Source: a virus (lineage: Duplodnaviria; Heunggongvirae; Uroviricota; Caudoviricetes). From it: a stretch of DNA of 64,000 nt. Shown one piece after another: positions 1 to 53,060 of the stretch. Within the stretch, counting starts at the first letter, position 1, and every line of letters begins with the position of its first letter. The notes beneath the pieces were generated by a model. It had not been told where the DNA came from. It was given only the letters and a program-made list of their open reading frames with translations, and searched no databases. The position numbers were made by a program, and so were the translations under genes. Location: the IMG/VR virus record IMGVR_UViG_2585427708_000005. One strand, 5' to 3'.

Positions 1-365
1 AAGCGCCAGATAAATTCAGGATGAGTTGGGGTAGGGATAGTAGCCATATTGGCAGCCTCCTTAGACGTTGGTATGTAACCACCGCAGAAGAGACCAATCT
101 TGCTGGCGGTGGACTGTACGGAGTTGGCCTTACTGGCGTCCAAGGTAACCAGCCTACCCGAAGGTAGCCCCATACAGCCCACCATTGTAGAGGTGTGCGT
201 GTACGCCGATACAAAAAAAGACGCGAGCGGCGTCTGTATCGCCTTAGACTTAAGCGGGAGGCCAATCCCGGCACCCGTTTTAATGAGGTGCCTGATAAGC
301 ATAAACCGAAAATGCCTCAAGGCGCAAGAGGTCAGGTTCAATGTAACATCGGTAGCTAAAAAACA

Positions 366-4944: not shown

Positions 4945-5325
4945 CTACTCCGCAGAACCATACAATCTACGTAACGTGGCGGCGACAGAAGATACAGATA
5001 TCTCGCCAGTCGCAGCCCCTACGGTAAGGTCTGCCAGTTCAGGTGAATCAAATACCTGCACCCCGTTACGGCGTAGAAATAACAGCGCACTGTTTAGCGC
5101 GGTACGCTTATTGGCATCATTGAATATATGCCCTCTCGCCGTAGCCACCAGGTAGGTGGCGGAGACTTCGAAAAGGTCGGTGATCTCTTCGTAGGCAACT
5201 CTGGCCTGAACTCTCCCGATAATGGCCTCTGCCCTACCCGGATCTGACATTCCCGGCAGGCCGCCGTAGCGGCTTATATTCGCATCATGAAGCGCAATAA
5301 GTTCTTCCGGTGATATATGCCTCAT
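4945..5325 (-). CDS. doc: Doc toxin (Fic/Doc family, death on curing)
   Basis: 126-aa ORF with Fic/Doc-type motif region ([12 protein letters not shown]); overlaps the phd stop; matches P1 Doc as recalled. Confidence 0.9.
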
Positions 5326-5552
5326 TATCGGTTAACCAGTTCCTTGTTGGTGGAGTCCAGGGTGTCAAACAGGGATGCAAATTCAGCATCCAGCGCCGCT
5401 TTTTTGTAGGCTTCGAAAGTAGCCTTGCTGACAATTACTGCTGGCTCACGGCCTCTGCGGGTGATTTCAACCTCTTCCCCGGCTTCAACATTGTTGAGCA
5501 CTTCAGAAAGGTTGCCACGCGCGGTACGGAAGTTAATGGATTGCATAAACAC
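5325..5552 (-). CDS. phd: Phd antitoxin (Phd/YefM family)
   Basis: About 73-aa ORF (true start probably the third codon) immediately upstream of and overlapping doc. Confidence 0.9.
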
Positions 5553-6182: not shown

Positions 6183-6518
6183 ATGCCTAATCGCATTCCT
6201 CTCGATCCTGTATTGCCCAAAAATTTTGACTGCACTCCTAACGAGAAACGCTCTAAAGCTCAGCTGGACGCCTGGTGGGACCATCCCTATGGGGTTACAG
6301 AACATGACGGGAAAATTGTTGTTTATTGTCTGAATGGTGGCGCGTGGGACCGTCCATCCGTGCTTGGTTTGGCAAATAACTATGATGAAGCCTGTGAACT
6401 TGCCGAAAGACAGCAGGCAAGCTGGGTAAAAACACGGTCTGAACCGACATTCATGTTTTCAAAAGAACCGCCATTTATACTGGCGAGGATGCCGCAGCGA
6501 CCGGATCATCAACAATAA
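6183..6518 (+). CDS. Hypothetical protein, divergent from humD
   Basis: 111-aa ORF with RBS-like aggaattagct upstream; no recognisable domain. Confidence 0.45.
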   Translation: MPNRIPLDPVLPKNFDCTPNEKRSKAQLDAWWDHPYGVTEHDGKIVVYCLNGGAWDRPSVLGLANNYDEACELAERQQASWVKTRSEPTFMFSKEPPFILARMPQRPDHQQ

Positions 6519-6548
6519 ATTGTTGCTGAATTTTCCTCAAGGGATGAG

Positions 6549-6764
6549 ATGAATCTCTTCTCATTAAAGCAGGAAGAAAGGGATCGCGTCGAAGTGTCTC
6601 CAACTCTCGACCACAACCGGATGAACCTGGCCCAACTCGCCTGGTACAGCAAAGAATTAGAGATGTCTATTGCCCGACTTGAAAACGAAAAAGCCGCTAT
6701 CCAAGCCCAGCATGAAGTAGTTCTGAACCGGATTAGAGAAATGCAAAACGATAATAGAGGCTAA
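6549..6764 (+). CDS. Hypothetical coiled-coil protein
   Basis: 71-aa ORF followed by a hairpin. Confidence 0.35.
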   Translation: MNLFSLKQEERDRVEVSPTLDHNRMNLAQLAWYSKELEMSIARLENEKAAIQAQHEVVLNRIREMQNDNRG

Positions 6765-6790
6765 ATCGAGGTAGAAAACACATTGTTTAA

Positions 6791-6807
6791 GGCCACTAAT
6801 TGTGGCC
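6791..6807. terminator. Hairpin between convergent genes (weak or bidirectional terminator)
   Basis: ggccac-taatt-gtggcc stem-loop between 6549..6764(+) and 6825..7376(-); no strong T-run. Confidence 0.35.
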
Positions 6808-6824
6808 TCAAAGGGGAGAGATGC

Positions 6825-7376
6825 TTATTGGCTATGGCTAAAAATCAAATGAGACACTTCATGTGGTTGTAGCTCGTCAAGATCCGGGGCCACAAAACCT
6901 TTTCCGAAAGACTTCACAAGTAATTCACCAGCCGCATCATTGTCACCTATTACACGAAAGTCATACGGCAGCATCGCAAGTTGACGGCGTAATCCTGCGG
7001 AGAAAGTCGAACCTAACAGCGCCCACGAATTGCCGCCCGCGTTGTGTACAGCTGCGCTCTTAAAAATAGACTCAGTTATCCATATTGGGCCATCTTTTAA
7101 AGGAAGATAGGTTCCCCAAAGTAACTGTCTGCCATGTGATCGCGTGAAATACCGGGCCATCTTCGGATTGCTATGCTGCTTAGGAGCACCTGGTCTATAT
7201 GTCTGATACCCAGCCAACATCCCATCAAACCTGTATAGAGGGAATGTAACTACTCCTTCACTTTCATCGATCCACTGTCTATATGGGTGTATATCATGGC
7301 GGTAGTTACGAGTTAGCAAATGAGCTTCCAGCTTTCCAAATTTTGTCATATTCCGTTCTTCCTGCATACTGGGCAT
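6825..7376 (-). CDS. Toprim-domain protein (primase-like catalytic core)
   Basis: 183 aa with conserved Glu (ITESIFKSAA) and DxD (VIGDNDAAGE) Toprim signatures. Confidence 0.55.
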   Translation of the reverse strand: MPSMQEERNMTKFGKLEAHLLTRNYRHDIHPYRQWIDESEGVVTFPLYRFDGMLAGYQTYRPGAPKQHSNPKMARYFTRSHGRQLLWGTYLPLKDGPIWITESIFKSAAVHNAGGNSWALLGSTFSAGLRRQLAMLPYDFRVIGDNDAAGELLVKSFGKGFVAPDLDELQPHEVSHLIFSHSQ

Positions 7377-7651
7377 GTGTTCTCTGTGAAATATGGGAAA
7401 CTATTATCCAGCTCATCTACCCACTGTTTATGGTCGAAGCAGAAAAATATCTCCCACGGCATTCCATATTCTTCCATCCATAGGCGGATCTGCATTTCTA
7501 TTGGAATCGGCGGTATTGCAGACACCATATCAACAGGATAACAGTTCAGACGACGTTCCAGTTCTTCTACTCTCTTCTGGAGATGAAATATCCGATCCAG
7601 ATGCACACGCCGCTCCCGTGCCATTTTAAAATAAAGCTCGCCGGTCATCAT
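7346..7651 (-). CDS. Hypothetical coiled-coil protein with C-terminal Cys/His motif (paralog A)
   Basis: 101 aa; C-terminal W-E-I-F-C-x-DH-x2-W-x-DELD-x-SFPYF-x-E-x3-CPxCR shared with the next gene. Confidence 0.5.
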   Translation of the reverse strand: MMTGELYFKMARERRVHLDRIFHLQKRVEELERRLNCYPVDMVSAIPPIPIEMQIRLWMEEYGMPWEIFFCFDHKQWVDELDNSFPYFTENTCPVCRKNGI

Positions 7652-8016
7652 TAACTCCTACATTCAGGGCAAGAGTTCCCTTCCGCAAAATAGGGGAAAC
7701 TGCTATCAAGCTCATCACACCATCTGCGATGGTCGTAGCACCAAAACGCCTCCCACGGTGCACGGAAATACTTCATCCACCAGGACACTCGATCAGGTAT
7801 ATCTGCTGGTGGCAGCTCTTCTGGCAATAATTTGCCTGATAATTCCCTTTCCGCCCGCGCCAGCATTCCTTTTAGACTCGCATTCTCTTTTTCAAGAATA
7901 TCTATGCGCGCCTGTAACTCAGCTTTCGTTGGCATGGTCCGCCTCATGCTTTTCAGCCACCAGCGGCAATAAAGCCCTGGCCATCTTATGAACCAACAGA
8001 GCATCGATAATGCCAA
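7651..8016 (-). CDS. Hypothetical coiled-coil protein with C-terminal Cys/His motif (paralog B)
   Basis: 121-aa ORF (real start probably internal) ending WEAFWCYDHRRWCDELDSSFPYFAEGNSCPECRS. Confidence 0.5.
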   Translation of the reverse strand: MALSMLCWFIRWPGLYCRWWLKSMRRTMPTKAELQARIDILEKENASLKGMLARAERELSGKLLPEELPPADIPDRVSWWMKYFRAPWEAFWCYDHRRWCDELDSSFPYFAEGNSCPECRS

Positions 8017-8608
8017 GCGTATGCCCCGGCTTAATGTTTAATGCCGCCTCAAGGTGACACCTTTCCAGGTCACTTTTCTCGGCTTGTTTATGATGGTCTG
8101 GCGTAATAACGTCGCCCAAAACACGGCTAATTCTTTCTCGTAATTGCTGGGTGCCTGCACACTTGATCGCTGTATCGTGGAGACGGTTAACCAGTTCGCG
8201 ATAAACATGCGGCTTAATGCGGATACGTTCACCTGTGACGCCCTTTCCTGGCGCTGGCACCGAACTATCCGGAATATCCGGAATATCCGGATAGTTGCCA
8301 GCCTCGTAAGCTACCCGCAGCCAGTGCATGAATGTTTCAGTGGACACACAACCACAGTCCACATCGATTTTTCCGCGTTGCTGTTCCAGCCACTGCTCAA
8401 AATTCAATCTACACGTATTACTTTCATGTTGCTCTTTTTGTCTCAAGGCCAGCACCTGTTGGGCCAGTTCCAGAACGATACCGGGTGACGCTAACCTCTC
8501 AAATTCCAATAAATAGTTTGCGTCAGGATGACAAGTAGCCTCGCCTGCAAAAAATACCAATTGCTGTAAGTATGCTGTCGTTAGAGTAGTCATTTCTTTT
8601 TGCGCCAT
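7919..8608 (-). CDS. Hypothetical protein
   Basis: 229-aa ORF; contains a DIPDIP tandem repeat encoded by ccggaatat repeats. Confidence 0.5.
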   Translation of the reverse strand: MAQKEMTTLTTAYLQQLVFFAGEATCHPDANYLLEFERLASPGIVLELAQQVLALRQKEQHESNTCRLNFEQWLEQQRGKIDVDCGCVSTETFMHWLRVAYEAGNYPDIPDIPDSSVPAPGKGVTGERIRIKPHVYRELVNRLHDTAIKCAGTQQLRERISRVLGDVITPDHHKQAEKSDLERCHLEAALNIKPGHTLGIIDALLVHKMARALLPLVAEKHEADHANES

Positions 8609-14527: not shown

Positions 14528-14544
14528 AGATTTATTAGAGCAAT
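14528..14544 (-). promoter_or_regulatory. C1 operator-like site (16/17)
   Basis: agatttattagagcaat upstream of 13768..14349. Confidence 0.6.
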
Positions 14545-52747: not shown

Positions 52748-53060
52748 AGTTACGGCCTCACTAACAGGTTTAACAACCTGCTACCCGCTGTCAAACAGGT
52801 GGCAGGACGTGACAGGGTTGACAGACTGGCGTTAGTGAAACCAGCAGGCCGAAGCCTCCCCATCACGCCCCACCATAATTCGGGCGTAACGCGGTTTACG
52901 GACACAAAAATACCGCAATATCGGAAATCTGCGGTTGTCCGCACTAACATTCAGGCTGTCAAACCCGGTCGCAGAATTTGCTACGACGGCGGAACTATAA
53001 GCCTGAACGATTAAAAGGTCAATATGATGCGAAAAGATAGCATTCGTGACTTAAAAATAC

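What the first reader, a model, noticed from the sequence alone, without database searches (positions are those of the whole stretch)
7346..8016. Tandem paralogous small proteins sharing a C-terminal Cys/His motif
Two adjacent genes encode coiled-coil proteins whose C-termini share W-[EA]-[IA]-F-[FW]-C-x-DH-[KR]-x-W-x-DELD-x-SFPYF-x-E-x3-CP-x-CR. The conserved Cys/His spacing suggests a metal-binding domain I cannot assign to a known family.
Basis: seen in the sequence. Interest (0 to 1): 0.4.

Follow-up and report, generated by a model that had tools for sequence, protein, structure and literature searches.

The report
Paired small zinc-knuckle phage accessory proteins
Two neighbouring intact genes in a P1-like phage-plasmid encode small proteins with a leucine-zipper-like helix and a conserved, probably zinc-binding, C-terminal domain; the family is rare, has no known function, fits no described domain, and is mislabelled "antitoxin PHD" in databases.

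Summary
On the minus strand, geneA (7651-7935, 94 aa) and geneB (7346-7651, 101 aa) are intact paralogues. Their C-terminal 54 residues are 52% identical (BLASTP E 4e-22). Both carry C-x2-H-x17/18-C-x2-C.

Both belong to PHROG 3797 (unknown function). No Pfam, NCBIfam, PADLOC or PDB sequence match covers the Cys/His domain. An exhaustive HMMER search of 1.84 billion representatives found only 47 relatives. C, P, C and C are invariant, and His is replaced only by Cys, as expected of a metal ligand.

It occurs only in early accessory regions of temperate enterobacterial phages: P1 variable region 8, lambdoid exo-xis-like regions and the P22 nin region. It has no conserved partner gene.

The genes sit in a translationally coupled chain: PmgU-like, A, B, then a stand-alone TOPRIM protein and a terminator. 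This chain probably lies under a C1 operator.

My best reading is a dimeric, zinc-stabilised protein-binding accessory factor whose target is unknown. Ideas of a primase zinc domain, DksA/TraR, Ea8.5 or Phd were tested and not supported. The finding is real but of modest interest.

The parts
7651..7935 (-). geneA: 94-aa protein (MPTKAEL...CPECRS) with a leucine-zipper-like helix and a C-terminal CHCC domain. Stop codon is 7651-7653.
   Evidence: ORF. The start is supported by a GAGG SD and by homologue N-termini. PHROG 3797 E 7e-58. 97% identical to P0001. dN/dS 0.13-0.38 against 21 alleles.
7346..7651 (-). geneB: 101-aa paralogue (MMTGELYFKMARERR...CPVCRKNGI). Its ATG overlaps the geneA stop (TAATG).
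   Evidence: ORF. PHROG 3797 E 1.6e-36. The exact sequence is on record in 2799 blocks of public assemblies. The overlap was read.
7837..7926 (-). Coiled-coil / leucine-zipper-like helix of geneA (residues 4-33). Position a holds I11, N18, L25, L32; position d holds L7, L14, L21, A28.
   Evidence: AF2 helix 4-33 at pLDDT >90. Heptad print-out. Sub-threshold bZIP-zipper and coiled-coil Pfam hits fall only here.
7654..7812 (-). Putative Zn-binding domain of geneA (residues 42-94). Ligand codons: C66 7738-7740, H69 7729-7731, C89 7669-7671, C92 7660-7662.
   Evidence: Domain-only AF2 model pLDDT 93.4, pTM 0.73. Invariant C/P/C/C and near-invariant H. Codons verified.
7349..7519 (-). Putative Zn-binding domain of geneB (residues 45-101). 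Ligand codons: C71 7439-7441, H74 7430-7432, C93 7373-7375, C96 7364-7366.
   Evidence: Alignment. Codons verified.
6825..7349 (-). Downstream 174-aa stand-alone TOPRIM protein (MTKFGKLEAHL...). Its ATG overlaps the geneB stop (ATGA). It is a neighbour, not a family member.
   Evidence: PHROG 849 'DNA primase' positions 143-333 of 435. It is complete as it stands: homologues of 171-172 aa occur in T5 (AAX12008) and Kagunavirus gp37. Annotated 'toprim domain-containing protein' in identical plasmids.
7919..8608 (-). Upstream 229-aa PmgU-like gene. It overlaps the geneA start by 17 nt.
   Evidence: Its C-terminal half is homologous to P1 PmgU. It precedes geneA in all 60 P1-like IMG/VR loci.
6786..6812 (-). 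Terminator-like hairpin (11-bp stem) ending the operon 13 nt after the TOPRIM stop.
   Evidence: consensus scan only.
14528..14544 (-). P1 C1-operator-like site (16/17 match) directly after the pap-like ORF, at the position of P1 Op88/OpmgT. It is the probable control point of the 14.5 to 6.8 kb minus-strand operon.
   Evidence: Operator search: 11 sites against 0.37 expected. P1 annotation of OpmgT after pap. The regulation is inferred.

Best explanation
GeneA and geneB are two intact, co-transcribed, translationally coupled members of one rare phage accessory family (PHROG 3797).

Each protein has an N-terminal leucine-zipper-like helix that most likely makes a parallel dimer, either homo- or A/B hetero-. 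After a Pro-rich linker comes an autonomous, acidic, aromatic-rich domain of about 50 residues. This domain probably holds one Zn2+. Two ligands, C-x2-H, sit on a small beta-hairpin knuckle. Two more, C-x2-C, sit at the start of the terminal helical turn, giving a treble-clef-like layout.

The pair lies in P1 'variable region 8', in a long minus-strand operon that probably starts at a C1 operator. It would therefore be made when the prophage is derepressed, early in lytic growth.

I think it is a non-essential accessory factor that works by binding a protein target (host, or a competing element's) rather than nucleic acid. The target is unknown.

Shown: the genes, the paralogy, family conservation, purifying selection, the absence of any known-family match, and the genomic contexts.

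Inferred: zinc binding, dimerisation, timing of expression, and protein binding as the mode of action.
For: Paralogy: BLASTP E 4e-22.

Family:
- PHROG 3797.
- 45-47 clusters in 5.8 billion proteins.
- 47 representatives in an exhaustive HMMER scan of 1.84 billion proteins.

Ligands:
- C66, P81, C89 and C92 are invariant.
- H69 is replaced only by Cys, in P0057, P0069 and P0084.

Modularity: in P0078, P0083 and P0084 the domain is N-terminal with a helical tail, so it is an independent module.

Structure:
- Full-length model pLDDT 87.9, helix 4-33.
- Domain-only model pLDDT 93.4, with a hairpin carrying C/H and a terminal helix carrying CxxC.

Zipper: clean a/d heptads with Asn or Ile at a central a position. 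The only Pfam near-hits are bZIP zipper and coiled-coil models.

Acidity: median pI is 5.5 for full-length proteins and 4.8 for the domain, and there is no basic region ahead of the zipper.

Selection: dN/dS 0.13-0.38 overall, and lower in the domain.

Coupling: overlaps of 17 nt, TAATG and ATGA, followed by a terminator.

Operator: a C1-operator-like site at the Op88 position.

Context:
- P1 variable region 8, whose P1 genes are non-essential by CRISPRi (PMC9603915; PMC10695390).
- Between Ead/Ea22-like genes and xis/int in Pantoea and Erwinia prophages.
- Between ninF and ninG in a P22-like phage.
- Beside methylase, AcrF8-like or HNH genes elsewhere.

Recurrence of the pair: an independent, diverged A-type plus B-type tandem occurs in a different context, L099.
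Against: There is no experimental datum on any member. Zinc binding was not measured, and I could not inspect model coordinates for ligand geometry.

Protein binding is argued only from acidity, the aromatic-rich conserved surface and the type of genomic neighbourhood. No partner is identified and no neighbour is conserved across contexts.

Frameshifted alleles of geneA are common in other plasmids; P0008 is seen on 80 contigs. The function is therefore readily dispensable.

The operator-to-operon link is by analogy with P1 and rests on consensus scans.
Confidence: 0.45

Rival explanations
1. Detached primase-type zinc-binding domain. GeneB (and A) would supply the C-x2-H...C-x2-C zinc domain (DnaG zf-CHC2-like) that the downstream stand-alone TOPRIM protein lacks, together forming a split primase or TOPRIM nuclease.
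For: The ligand order and spacing (CHCC, x17/18) resemble DnaG zf-CHC2 (my own knowledge). The TOPRIM ORF matches only positions 143-333 of the 435-position 'DNA primase' PHROG 849, so it lacks an N-terminal zinc domain. The geneB stop and the TOPRIM start overlap as ATGA. In IMG/VR, 12 of 13 A+B tandems are followed by the TOPRIM gene.

Against: The TOPRIM protein is a complete, widespread family of about 172 aa that occurs without any family member, in T5, in Kagunavirus, and in PhiR41_1 directly after an EaA gene. The zinc family occurs without TOPRIM in lambdoid, P22-like, LASTA and L099 contexts. The megablast breakpoint lies exactly at the gene boundary, which indicates module shuffling.
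Confidence: 0.1
2. Nucleic-acid-binding regulator: a bZIP-like dimer with zinc fingers that binds DNA or RNA to control phage or host genes.
For: It combines a leucine-zipper-like helix with a zinc-finger-like motif. Sub-threshold bZIP hits are seen in 5 of 41 members. It lies in early regulatory and accessory regions. In 15 of 28 diverse loci it is followed by a PHROG 536 'transcriptional regulator'.
Against: The bZIP hits cover only the zipper part of the model (positions 28-54 of 54). Only about 6 residues precede the zipper, so there is no basic region. Proteins and domains are acidic almost throughout the family, with domain median pI 4.8. The conserved residues are aromatic and acidic (W, F, Y, ELD), not basic.
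Confidence: 0.15
3. RNA-polymerase secondary-channel binder of the DksA/TraR type, that is a helix plus a C4-type zinc finger of similar spacing.
For: The architecture is similar in outline, a long helix then Cx2[CH]-x17/18-Cx2C. TraR-like genes such as lambda Orf73 live in the same exo-xis-type regions (PMC9239242, listed; otherwise my own knowledge).
Confidence: 0.05
4. True Phd-type antitoxin, as NCBI names geneA, or a virion morphogenesis protein, as the 'pmg' labels of the P1 region imply.
For: NCBI and UniRef name many members 'antitoxin PHD'. The gene occupies the position of P1 pmgV, labelled 'putative morphogenetic function'.
Against: The real phd-doc pair lies elsewhere in the window; Phd is at 5325-5552. 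hhalign of the family against Phd gives probability 0.2%, and there is no PhdYeFM Pfam hit. No toxin gene is adjacent. PmgV is not homologous, with probability 0.2%. P1 pmgT, pmgU and pmgV are non-essential by CRISPRi. Homologues sit in early-left and nin regions, not in structural modules.
Confidence: 0.03

Closest known systems
PHROG 3797 (phage orthologous group, 'unknown function')
   Same: Both proteins match the whole 94-position profile (E 7e-58 and 1.6e-36). Distant members also match: P22-like SE1 at 4e-16, P0082 and P0084.
   Different: Nothing differs; this is the family. It carries no functional or structural annotation, so membership explains nothing.
DnaG-type primase zinc-binding domain (Pfam zf-CHC2, PF01807)
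   Same: Same ligand order, Cys-His-Cys-Cys, and similar spacing (C-x2-H-x17-C-x2-C in DnaG, from my own knowledge). One copy is next to a TOPRIM gene.
   Different: No profile similarity. The predicted fold is not a zinc ribbon. The link to TOPRIM is confined to one P1-like arrangement.
Lambda Ea8.5 (hybrid homeodomain/zinc-finger fold, PDB 2M7A)
   Same: It is a similar size (93 aa) and occupies the same kind of place, the exo-xis region between ea22 and xis. In Erwinia and Pantoea prophages the family sits between Ead/Ea22-like genes and xis/int. Its C-terminal ...GNDTCPLC resembles ...EGNSCPEC.
DksA/TraR family (Pfam zf-dskA_traR, PF01258)
   Same: Helix plus a four-ligand zinc site with an inter-pair loop of about 17-18 residues. 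It is encoded by phages and plasmids in accessory regions.
   Different: No sequence or fold similarity. The domain organisation also differs.
Small acidic coiled-coil phage inhibitors (T7 gp5.9, lambda Gam): functional analogy only
   Different: Those hits are within noise and confined to the helix. Neither inhibitor has a zinc domain. No evidence links this family to RecBCD.
P1 PmgV (gp097)
   Same: Same position after pmgU, similar size (120 aa) and coiled-coil character.
   Different: It is not homologous (hhalign 0.2%) and has no Cys/His domain.

Membership tests
PHROG 3797 | Significant full-length match to the family profile | tested here: met
   E 7e-58 (A, positions 1-94 of 94) and 1.6e-36 (B).
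Phd/YefM antitoxin (the NCBI name 'antitoxin PHD') | PhdYeFM_antitox domain (PF02604) | tested here: not met
   No Pfam hit in 41 members. hhalign against the window's own Phd gives probability 0.2%.
Phd/YefM antitoxin (the NCBI name 'antitoxin PHD') | Cognate toxin gene (Doc/YoeB type) immediately downstream | tested here: not met
   Downstream are geneB and a TOPRIM gene. The real phd-doc pair is a separate locus.
DnaG-type zf-CHC2 primase zinc-binding domain | Profile match to PF01807 or similarity to the DnaG N-terminal domain | tested here: not met
   No hit at E<=1 in 41 members. hhalign probability 1%.
DnaG-type zf-CHC2 primase zinc-binding domain | C-x2-H-x17-C-x2-C ligand pattern | tested here: met
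   C-x2-H-x18-C-x2-C in A and x17 in B. The pattern alone is not diagnostic.
DnaG-type zf-CHC2 primase zinc-binding domain | Obligate association with a TOPRIM catalytic domain | tested here: not met
   Most family members have no TOPRIM neighbour, and TOPRIM homologues occur without the family.
DksA/TraR | zf-dskA_traR domain (PF01258) or similarity to TraR | tested here: not met
   No Pfam hit. hhalign probability 1%. No structural hit.
Lambda Ea8.5 family | Sequence or fold similarity to Ea8.5 (PDB 2M7A) | tested here: not met
bZIP transcription factors | Basic DNA-binding region N-terminal to the leucine zipper | tested here: not met
   Sub-threshold hits cover only the zipper part (bZIP_2 positions 28-54 of 54). 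Only about 6 residues precede the zipper, and the protein pI is 5.0.
Zinc-binding protein (generic) | Stoichiometric Zn2+ bound by the four conserved ligands | not testable with these tools
   Only indirect support is available. The ligands are invariant, with His replaced only by Cys. The fold is compact and confidently modelled.

The most novel reading that the evidence does not exclude
The roughly 50-residue domain is a previously undescribed zinc-binding fold. The A/B pair would form a heterodimeric early effector of temperate enterobacterial phages that neutralises a specific host protein, for example a defence or SOS/repair component, since it sits beside humD in two unrelated contexts. 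That would make it a new class of anti-defence or host-takeover protein.
Probability: 0.15. Interest if true: 0.6.

Novelty: new variant of a known kind. Interest (0 to 1): 0.3.

Why it matters
Small early accessory genes of temperate phages are where many anti-defence and host-takeover functions have been found. This family is a clean, confidently modelled, selectively maintained domain with no structural or functional assignment. It is carried by P1-like plasmids in about 3% of complete E. coli genomes.

If its target were identified, it could add a new zinc-dependent inhibitor type. At the least, the widespread database name "antitoxin PHD" should be corrected.

As it stands, this is one more uncharacterised phage ORF family, not a surprise.

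Tried and rejected
1. Split primase zinc-binding domain. This was suggested by the CHCC spacing and the adjacent TOPRIM ORF, which matches only the middle of a primase PHROG. I rejected it as the main reading:
- No zf-CHC2 similarity.
- The TOPRIM protein is a complete stand-alone family.
- Co-occurrence is limited to one P1-like arrangement.

2. DksA/TraR: no similarity.

3. Lambda Ea8.5. Its position and its C-terminal CPxC were tempting, but hhalign gives 4.8% and there is no fold hit.

4. Phd antitoxin (the NCBI name) and P1 PmgV: not homologous.

5. Known defence proteins: no PADLOC hits.

7. Conserved neighbour analysis in 28 diverse loci. Only a PHROG 536 regulator plus xis/int recur, in 15 loci that are probably related prophages. 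There is no universal partner.

8. First search for related loci attempt with the broad alignment failed because no stretch was conserved enough. It succeeded with a narrower alignment.

9. Literature searches on Ea8.5/zinc, pmgU/pmgV and P1-like anti-defence found no description of this family.

Full report
**What the window is.** The region matches P1-like phage-plasmids (Punavirus). It is 100% identical over 1.9 kb to E. coli plasmids such as NZ_CP027590.1 and CP101300.1, and 99.9% identical to NC_013370.1. The window carries P1 hallmarks:
- humD and phd.
- Two C4 antisense RNAs and four tRNA genes.
- Eleven C1-operator-like sites against 0.37 expected by chance.

**The observation.** On the minus strand, ORF 7346-7651 (101 aa, geneB) directly follows ORF 7651-8016. 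The 8016 TTG start is a mechanical artefact. The ATG at 7935 gives a 94-aa protein, MPTKAEL... (geneA). It is preceded by GAGG, it is where nearly all homologues start, and it is what gene callers chose on other contigs.

The two products align over their C-terminal 54 residues at 52% identity, E 4e-22. Both carry Cys-x2-His...Cys-x2-Cys. In A the ligands are C66, H69, C89, C92, and in B they are C71, H74, C93, C96. I verified every codon. Both genes are intact. The second position is E in both copies. A also has one more residue than B before CPxC.

**Gene organisation.** The genes form a translationally coupled chain:
- The PmgU-like ORF (7919-8608) overlaps geneA by 17 nt.
- The geneA stop overlaps the geneB start (TAATG).
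- The geneB stop overlaps the start of a 174-aa TOPRIM ORF (ATGA, 6825-7349).
- An 11-bp-stem hairpin follows at 6812-6786.

Upstream, an uninterrupted run of minus-strand ORFs reaches a 16/17 match to the P1 C1 operator at 14528-14544. This site lies directly after the pap-like ORF, exactly where P1 has Op88/OpmgT. I infer, but have not shown, that the operon is C1-repressed and expressed early after derepression.

The locus is 'variable region 8' of P1-like phage-plasmids (PMC9603915). The P1 genes at this position, pmgT, pmgU and pmgV, are non-essential by CRISPRi (PMC10695390). P1 itself has the unrelated coiled-coil PmgV here. RCS47 has one copy of geneA, left unannotated.

**Family.**
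- Both proteins match PHROG 3797, 'unknown function'.
- Nothing in Pfam, NCBIfam or PADLOC matches the C-terminal domain.
- Across 41 members scanned individually at E<=1, the only hits are sub-threshold coiled-coil and bZIP-zipper models on the N-terminal helix.
- PDB sequence searches return only coiled coils.
- The family is small, with 45-47 clusters among 5.8 billion proteins and 47 representatives in an exhaustive HMMER scan of 1.84 billion.
- NCBI and UniRef label many members 'antitoxin PHD'. This is wrong. There is no Phd/YefM domain, hhalign probability against the window's own Phd is 0.2%, and no toxin gene is adjacent.

**Conservation.** Across members down to about 25-30% identity, C66, P81, C89 and C92 are invariant. 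F64, H69, W72, D77 and F80 are nearly invariant.

His69 is replaced only by Cys, giving CHEC, CQIC and CKKC in P0057, P0069 and P0084. That is what a metal ligand does. In P0078, P0083 and P0084 the domain is N-terminal and the helical segment follows it, so the domain is an autonomous module.

Compared with 21 other 94-codon alleles from IMG/VR, geneA shows dN/dS of 0.13-0.38. The domain half is generally more constrained, at 0.10-0.28. These comparisons are not independent, but they are consistent with purifying selection. Frameshifted alleles and A/B chimeras also circulate: P0008, P0011, P0017 and P0033 are frameshifted, and P0004 and P0036 are chimeras. The function can therefore be lost.

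**Structure.** With a 28-sequence alignment, AF2 models geneA at pLDDT 87.9. It shows a helix at 4-33, a Pro-rich linker, a helix at 48-57 and then a small domain.

The domain alone (residues 42-94) models at pLDDT 93.4 and pTM 0.73. C-x2-H lies on a short beta-hairpin and C-x2-C at the start of the terminal helical turn, a treble-clef-like arrangement. I could not inspect coordinates, so the ligand geometry is not verified.

Fold searches found nothing:

The N-terminal helix has textbook heptads, with I11, N18, L25, L32 at a and L7, L14, L21, A28 at d. Asn or Ile occupies the central a position across homologues. This favours a parallel dimer, which is an inference.

**Charge.** The family is acidic. 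Median pI is 5.5 for the full-length proteins and 4.8 for the domain. No basic region precedes the zipper. This argues against a bZIP-like or zinc-finger nucleic-acid binder. Together with the conserved aromatic/acidic surface (WExFWC..H..W..ELD..FPY), it favours protein binding.

**Distribution and context.**
- In complete E. coli genomes, 146 of 5426 have a match, almost all on plasmids, and 24 carry the full A+B tandem.
- In 60 P1-like IMG/VR loci, geneA always follows the PmgU-like gene. Thirteen have A+B, and 12 of those are followed by TOPRIM.
- In Pantoea and Erwinia lambdoid prophages the family lies between Ead/Ea22-like genes and xis/int.
- In P22-like Salmonella phage SE1 it lies between ninF and ninG.
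- It also occurs in Klebsiella phage LASTA.
- In metagenomic phage contigs it lies beside DNA methylase, AcrF8-like or HNH genes.
- Clustering the neighbours in 28 diverse loci found only one recurrent neighbour, a PHROG 536 'transcriptional regulator', in 15 probably related prophages.

So no partner gene is universal. One contig from a different context, L099, carries a diverged A-type gene immediately followed by a B-type gene. They lie directly after a humD-like gene, and no TOPRIM gene is present. A and B are therefore two old subfamilies that recur as a pair, which hints at joint (heterodimeric?) action. Each also occurs alone.

**The TOPRIM neighbour and the primase idea.** The 174-aa ORF matches only the middle of a primase PHROG, and the CHCC spacing recalls the DnaG zinc-binding domain. 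I therefore tested a 'split primase' reading. Four results count against it:
- hhalign against the DnaG N-terminus gives 1%, and no zf-CHC2 hit appears in any member.
- The TOPRIM protein is a complete, widespread stand-alone family. Examples are T5 AAX12008 (172 aa) and Kagunavirus gp37, and 489 phage records match.
- In PhiR41_1 the same TOPRIM gene (98% identical) follows an EaA gene with no family member present.
- The nucleotide similarity breakpoint lies at the gene boundary.

The linkage therefore looks like module shuffling, although a B-TOPRIM interaction is not excluded.

**Other candidates.**
- TraR/DksA: hhalign probability 1%.
- Lambda Ea8.5: same kind of genomic position and a similar C-terminal CPxC, but hhalign 4.8% and no fold hit.
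- PmgV: hhalign probability 0.2%.

None of these is supported.

**Verdict.** This is a real, selectively maintained, uncharacterised small-protein family with a probable zinc-binding domain that no described family accounts for.

My best mechanistic reading is a dimeric, zinc-stabilised, protein-binding early accessory factor, at confidence about 0.45. The rivals are:
- a nucleic-acid-binding regulator (0.15);
- a partner of the TOPRIM protein (0.10);
- a TraR-like RNAP binder (0.05);
- an antitoxin or morphogenesis protein (0.03).

It is a new variant within the familiar class of small Cys/His phage accessory proteins. It is catalogued but has no known function. Interest is modest (0.3) unless a target is found.

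Noticed in passing
window 7742-7773 (inside geneA); L105 604-635: A type I-E CRISPR spacer in the chromosome of E. coli LI60C3 (NZ_CP136900.1, array next to cas2e) is 100% identical to 32 nt of geneA, which encode KYFRAPWEAFW. On the minus strand the protospacer is preceded by 5'-ATG, which from my own knowledge is an interference-proficient I-E PAM. The spacer is therefore identical to this plasmid's geneA sequence.
   Followed up: partly
window 6825-7349 (-): The 174-aa stand-alone TOPRIM protein is often annotated 'DNA primase' but lacks any zinc-binding or helicase-interaction part. Its family is widespread (489 phage records). In T5 it lies next to tRNA genes, and in Shewanella and Vibrio phages the matched stretch also carries a tRNA nucleotidyltransferase annotation. 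It has no Pfam hit, and its real activity (nuclease, or RNA processing?) is unclear.
   Followed up: partly
window 6183-6764 (+): The gene at the position of P1 lxr (PHROG 6164, 194 positions) is split here by a single in-frame stop at 6516-6518 into 111-aa and 71-aa ORFs. Other P1-like contigs carry an uninterrupted 193-aa gene, for example L012 and L013. L014 and L015 share the split.
   Followed up: partly
window 8267-8290 (within the PmgU-like ORF 7919-8608): A 9-bp unit (TCCGGAATA) in tandem, two full copies plus a partial third, encodes a DIPDIPD repeat. RCS47 has one unit fewer, giving 226 aa against 229 aa. This is copy-number variation inside the PmgU-like gene.
   Followed up: no
L002 2995-3279 (RCS47, FO818745.1); L018 3941-4300 (Salmonella phage SE1): Family members are unannotated or mis-called in deposited phage genomes. 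RCS47 has no CDS for its geneA copy. SE1 annotates only a 54-aa fragment. NCBI's name 'antitoxin PHD' for the family is unfounded.
   Followed up: yes
P0046 (285 aa), P0004, P0036: Natural fusions and chimeras exist. P0046 is an in-frame PmgU-like::geneA fusion. P0004 and P0036 are A/B chimeras that look like products of recombination between the tandem paralogues.
   Followed up: no
window 102-291 and 52795-53000 (-): There are two C4 antisense RNA loci, one with an adjacent isrK match and the other with the c4-a1b1 target element. Four tRNA genes (Met, Thr, Tyr, Asn) lie at 27.8-30.1 kb. All are typical P1 immunity and tRNA features.
   Followed up: no
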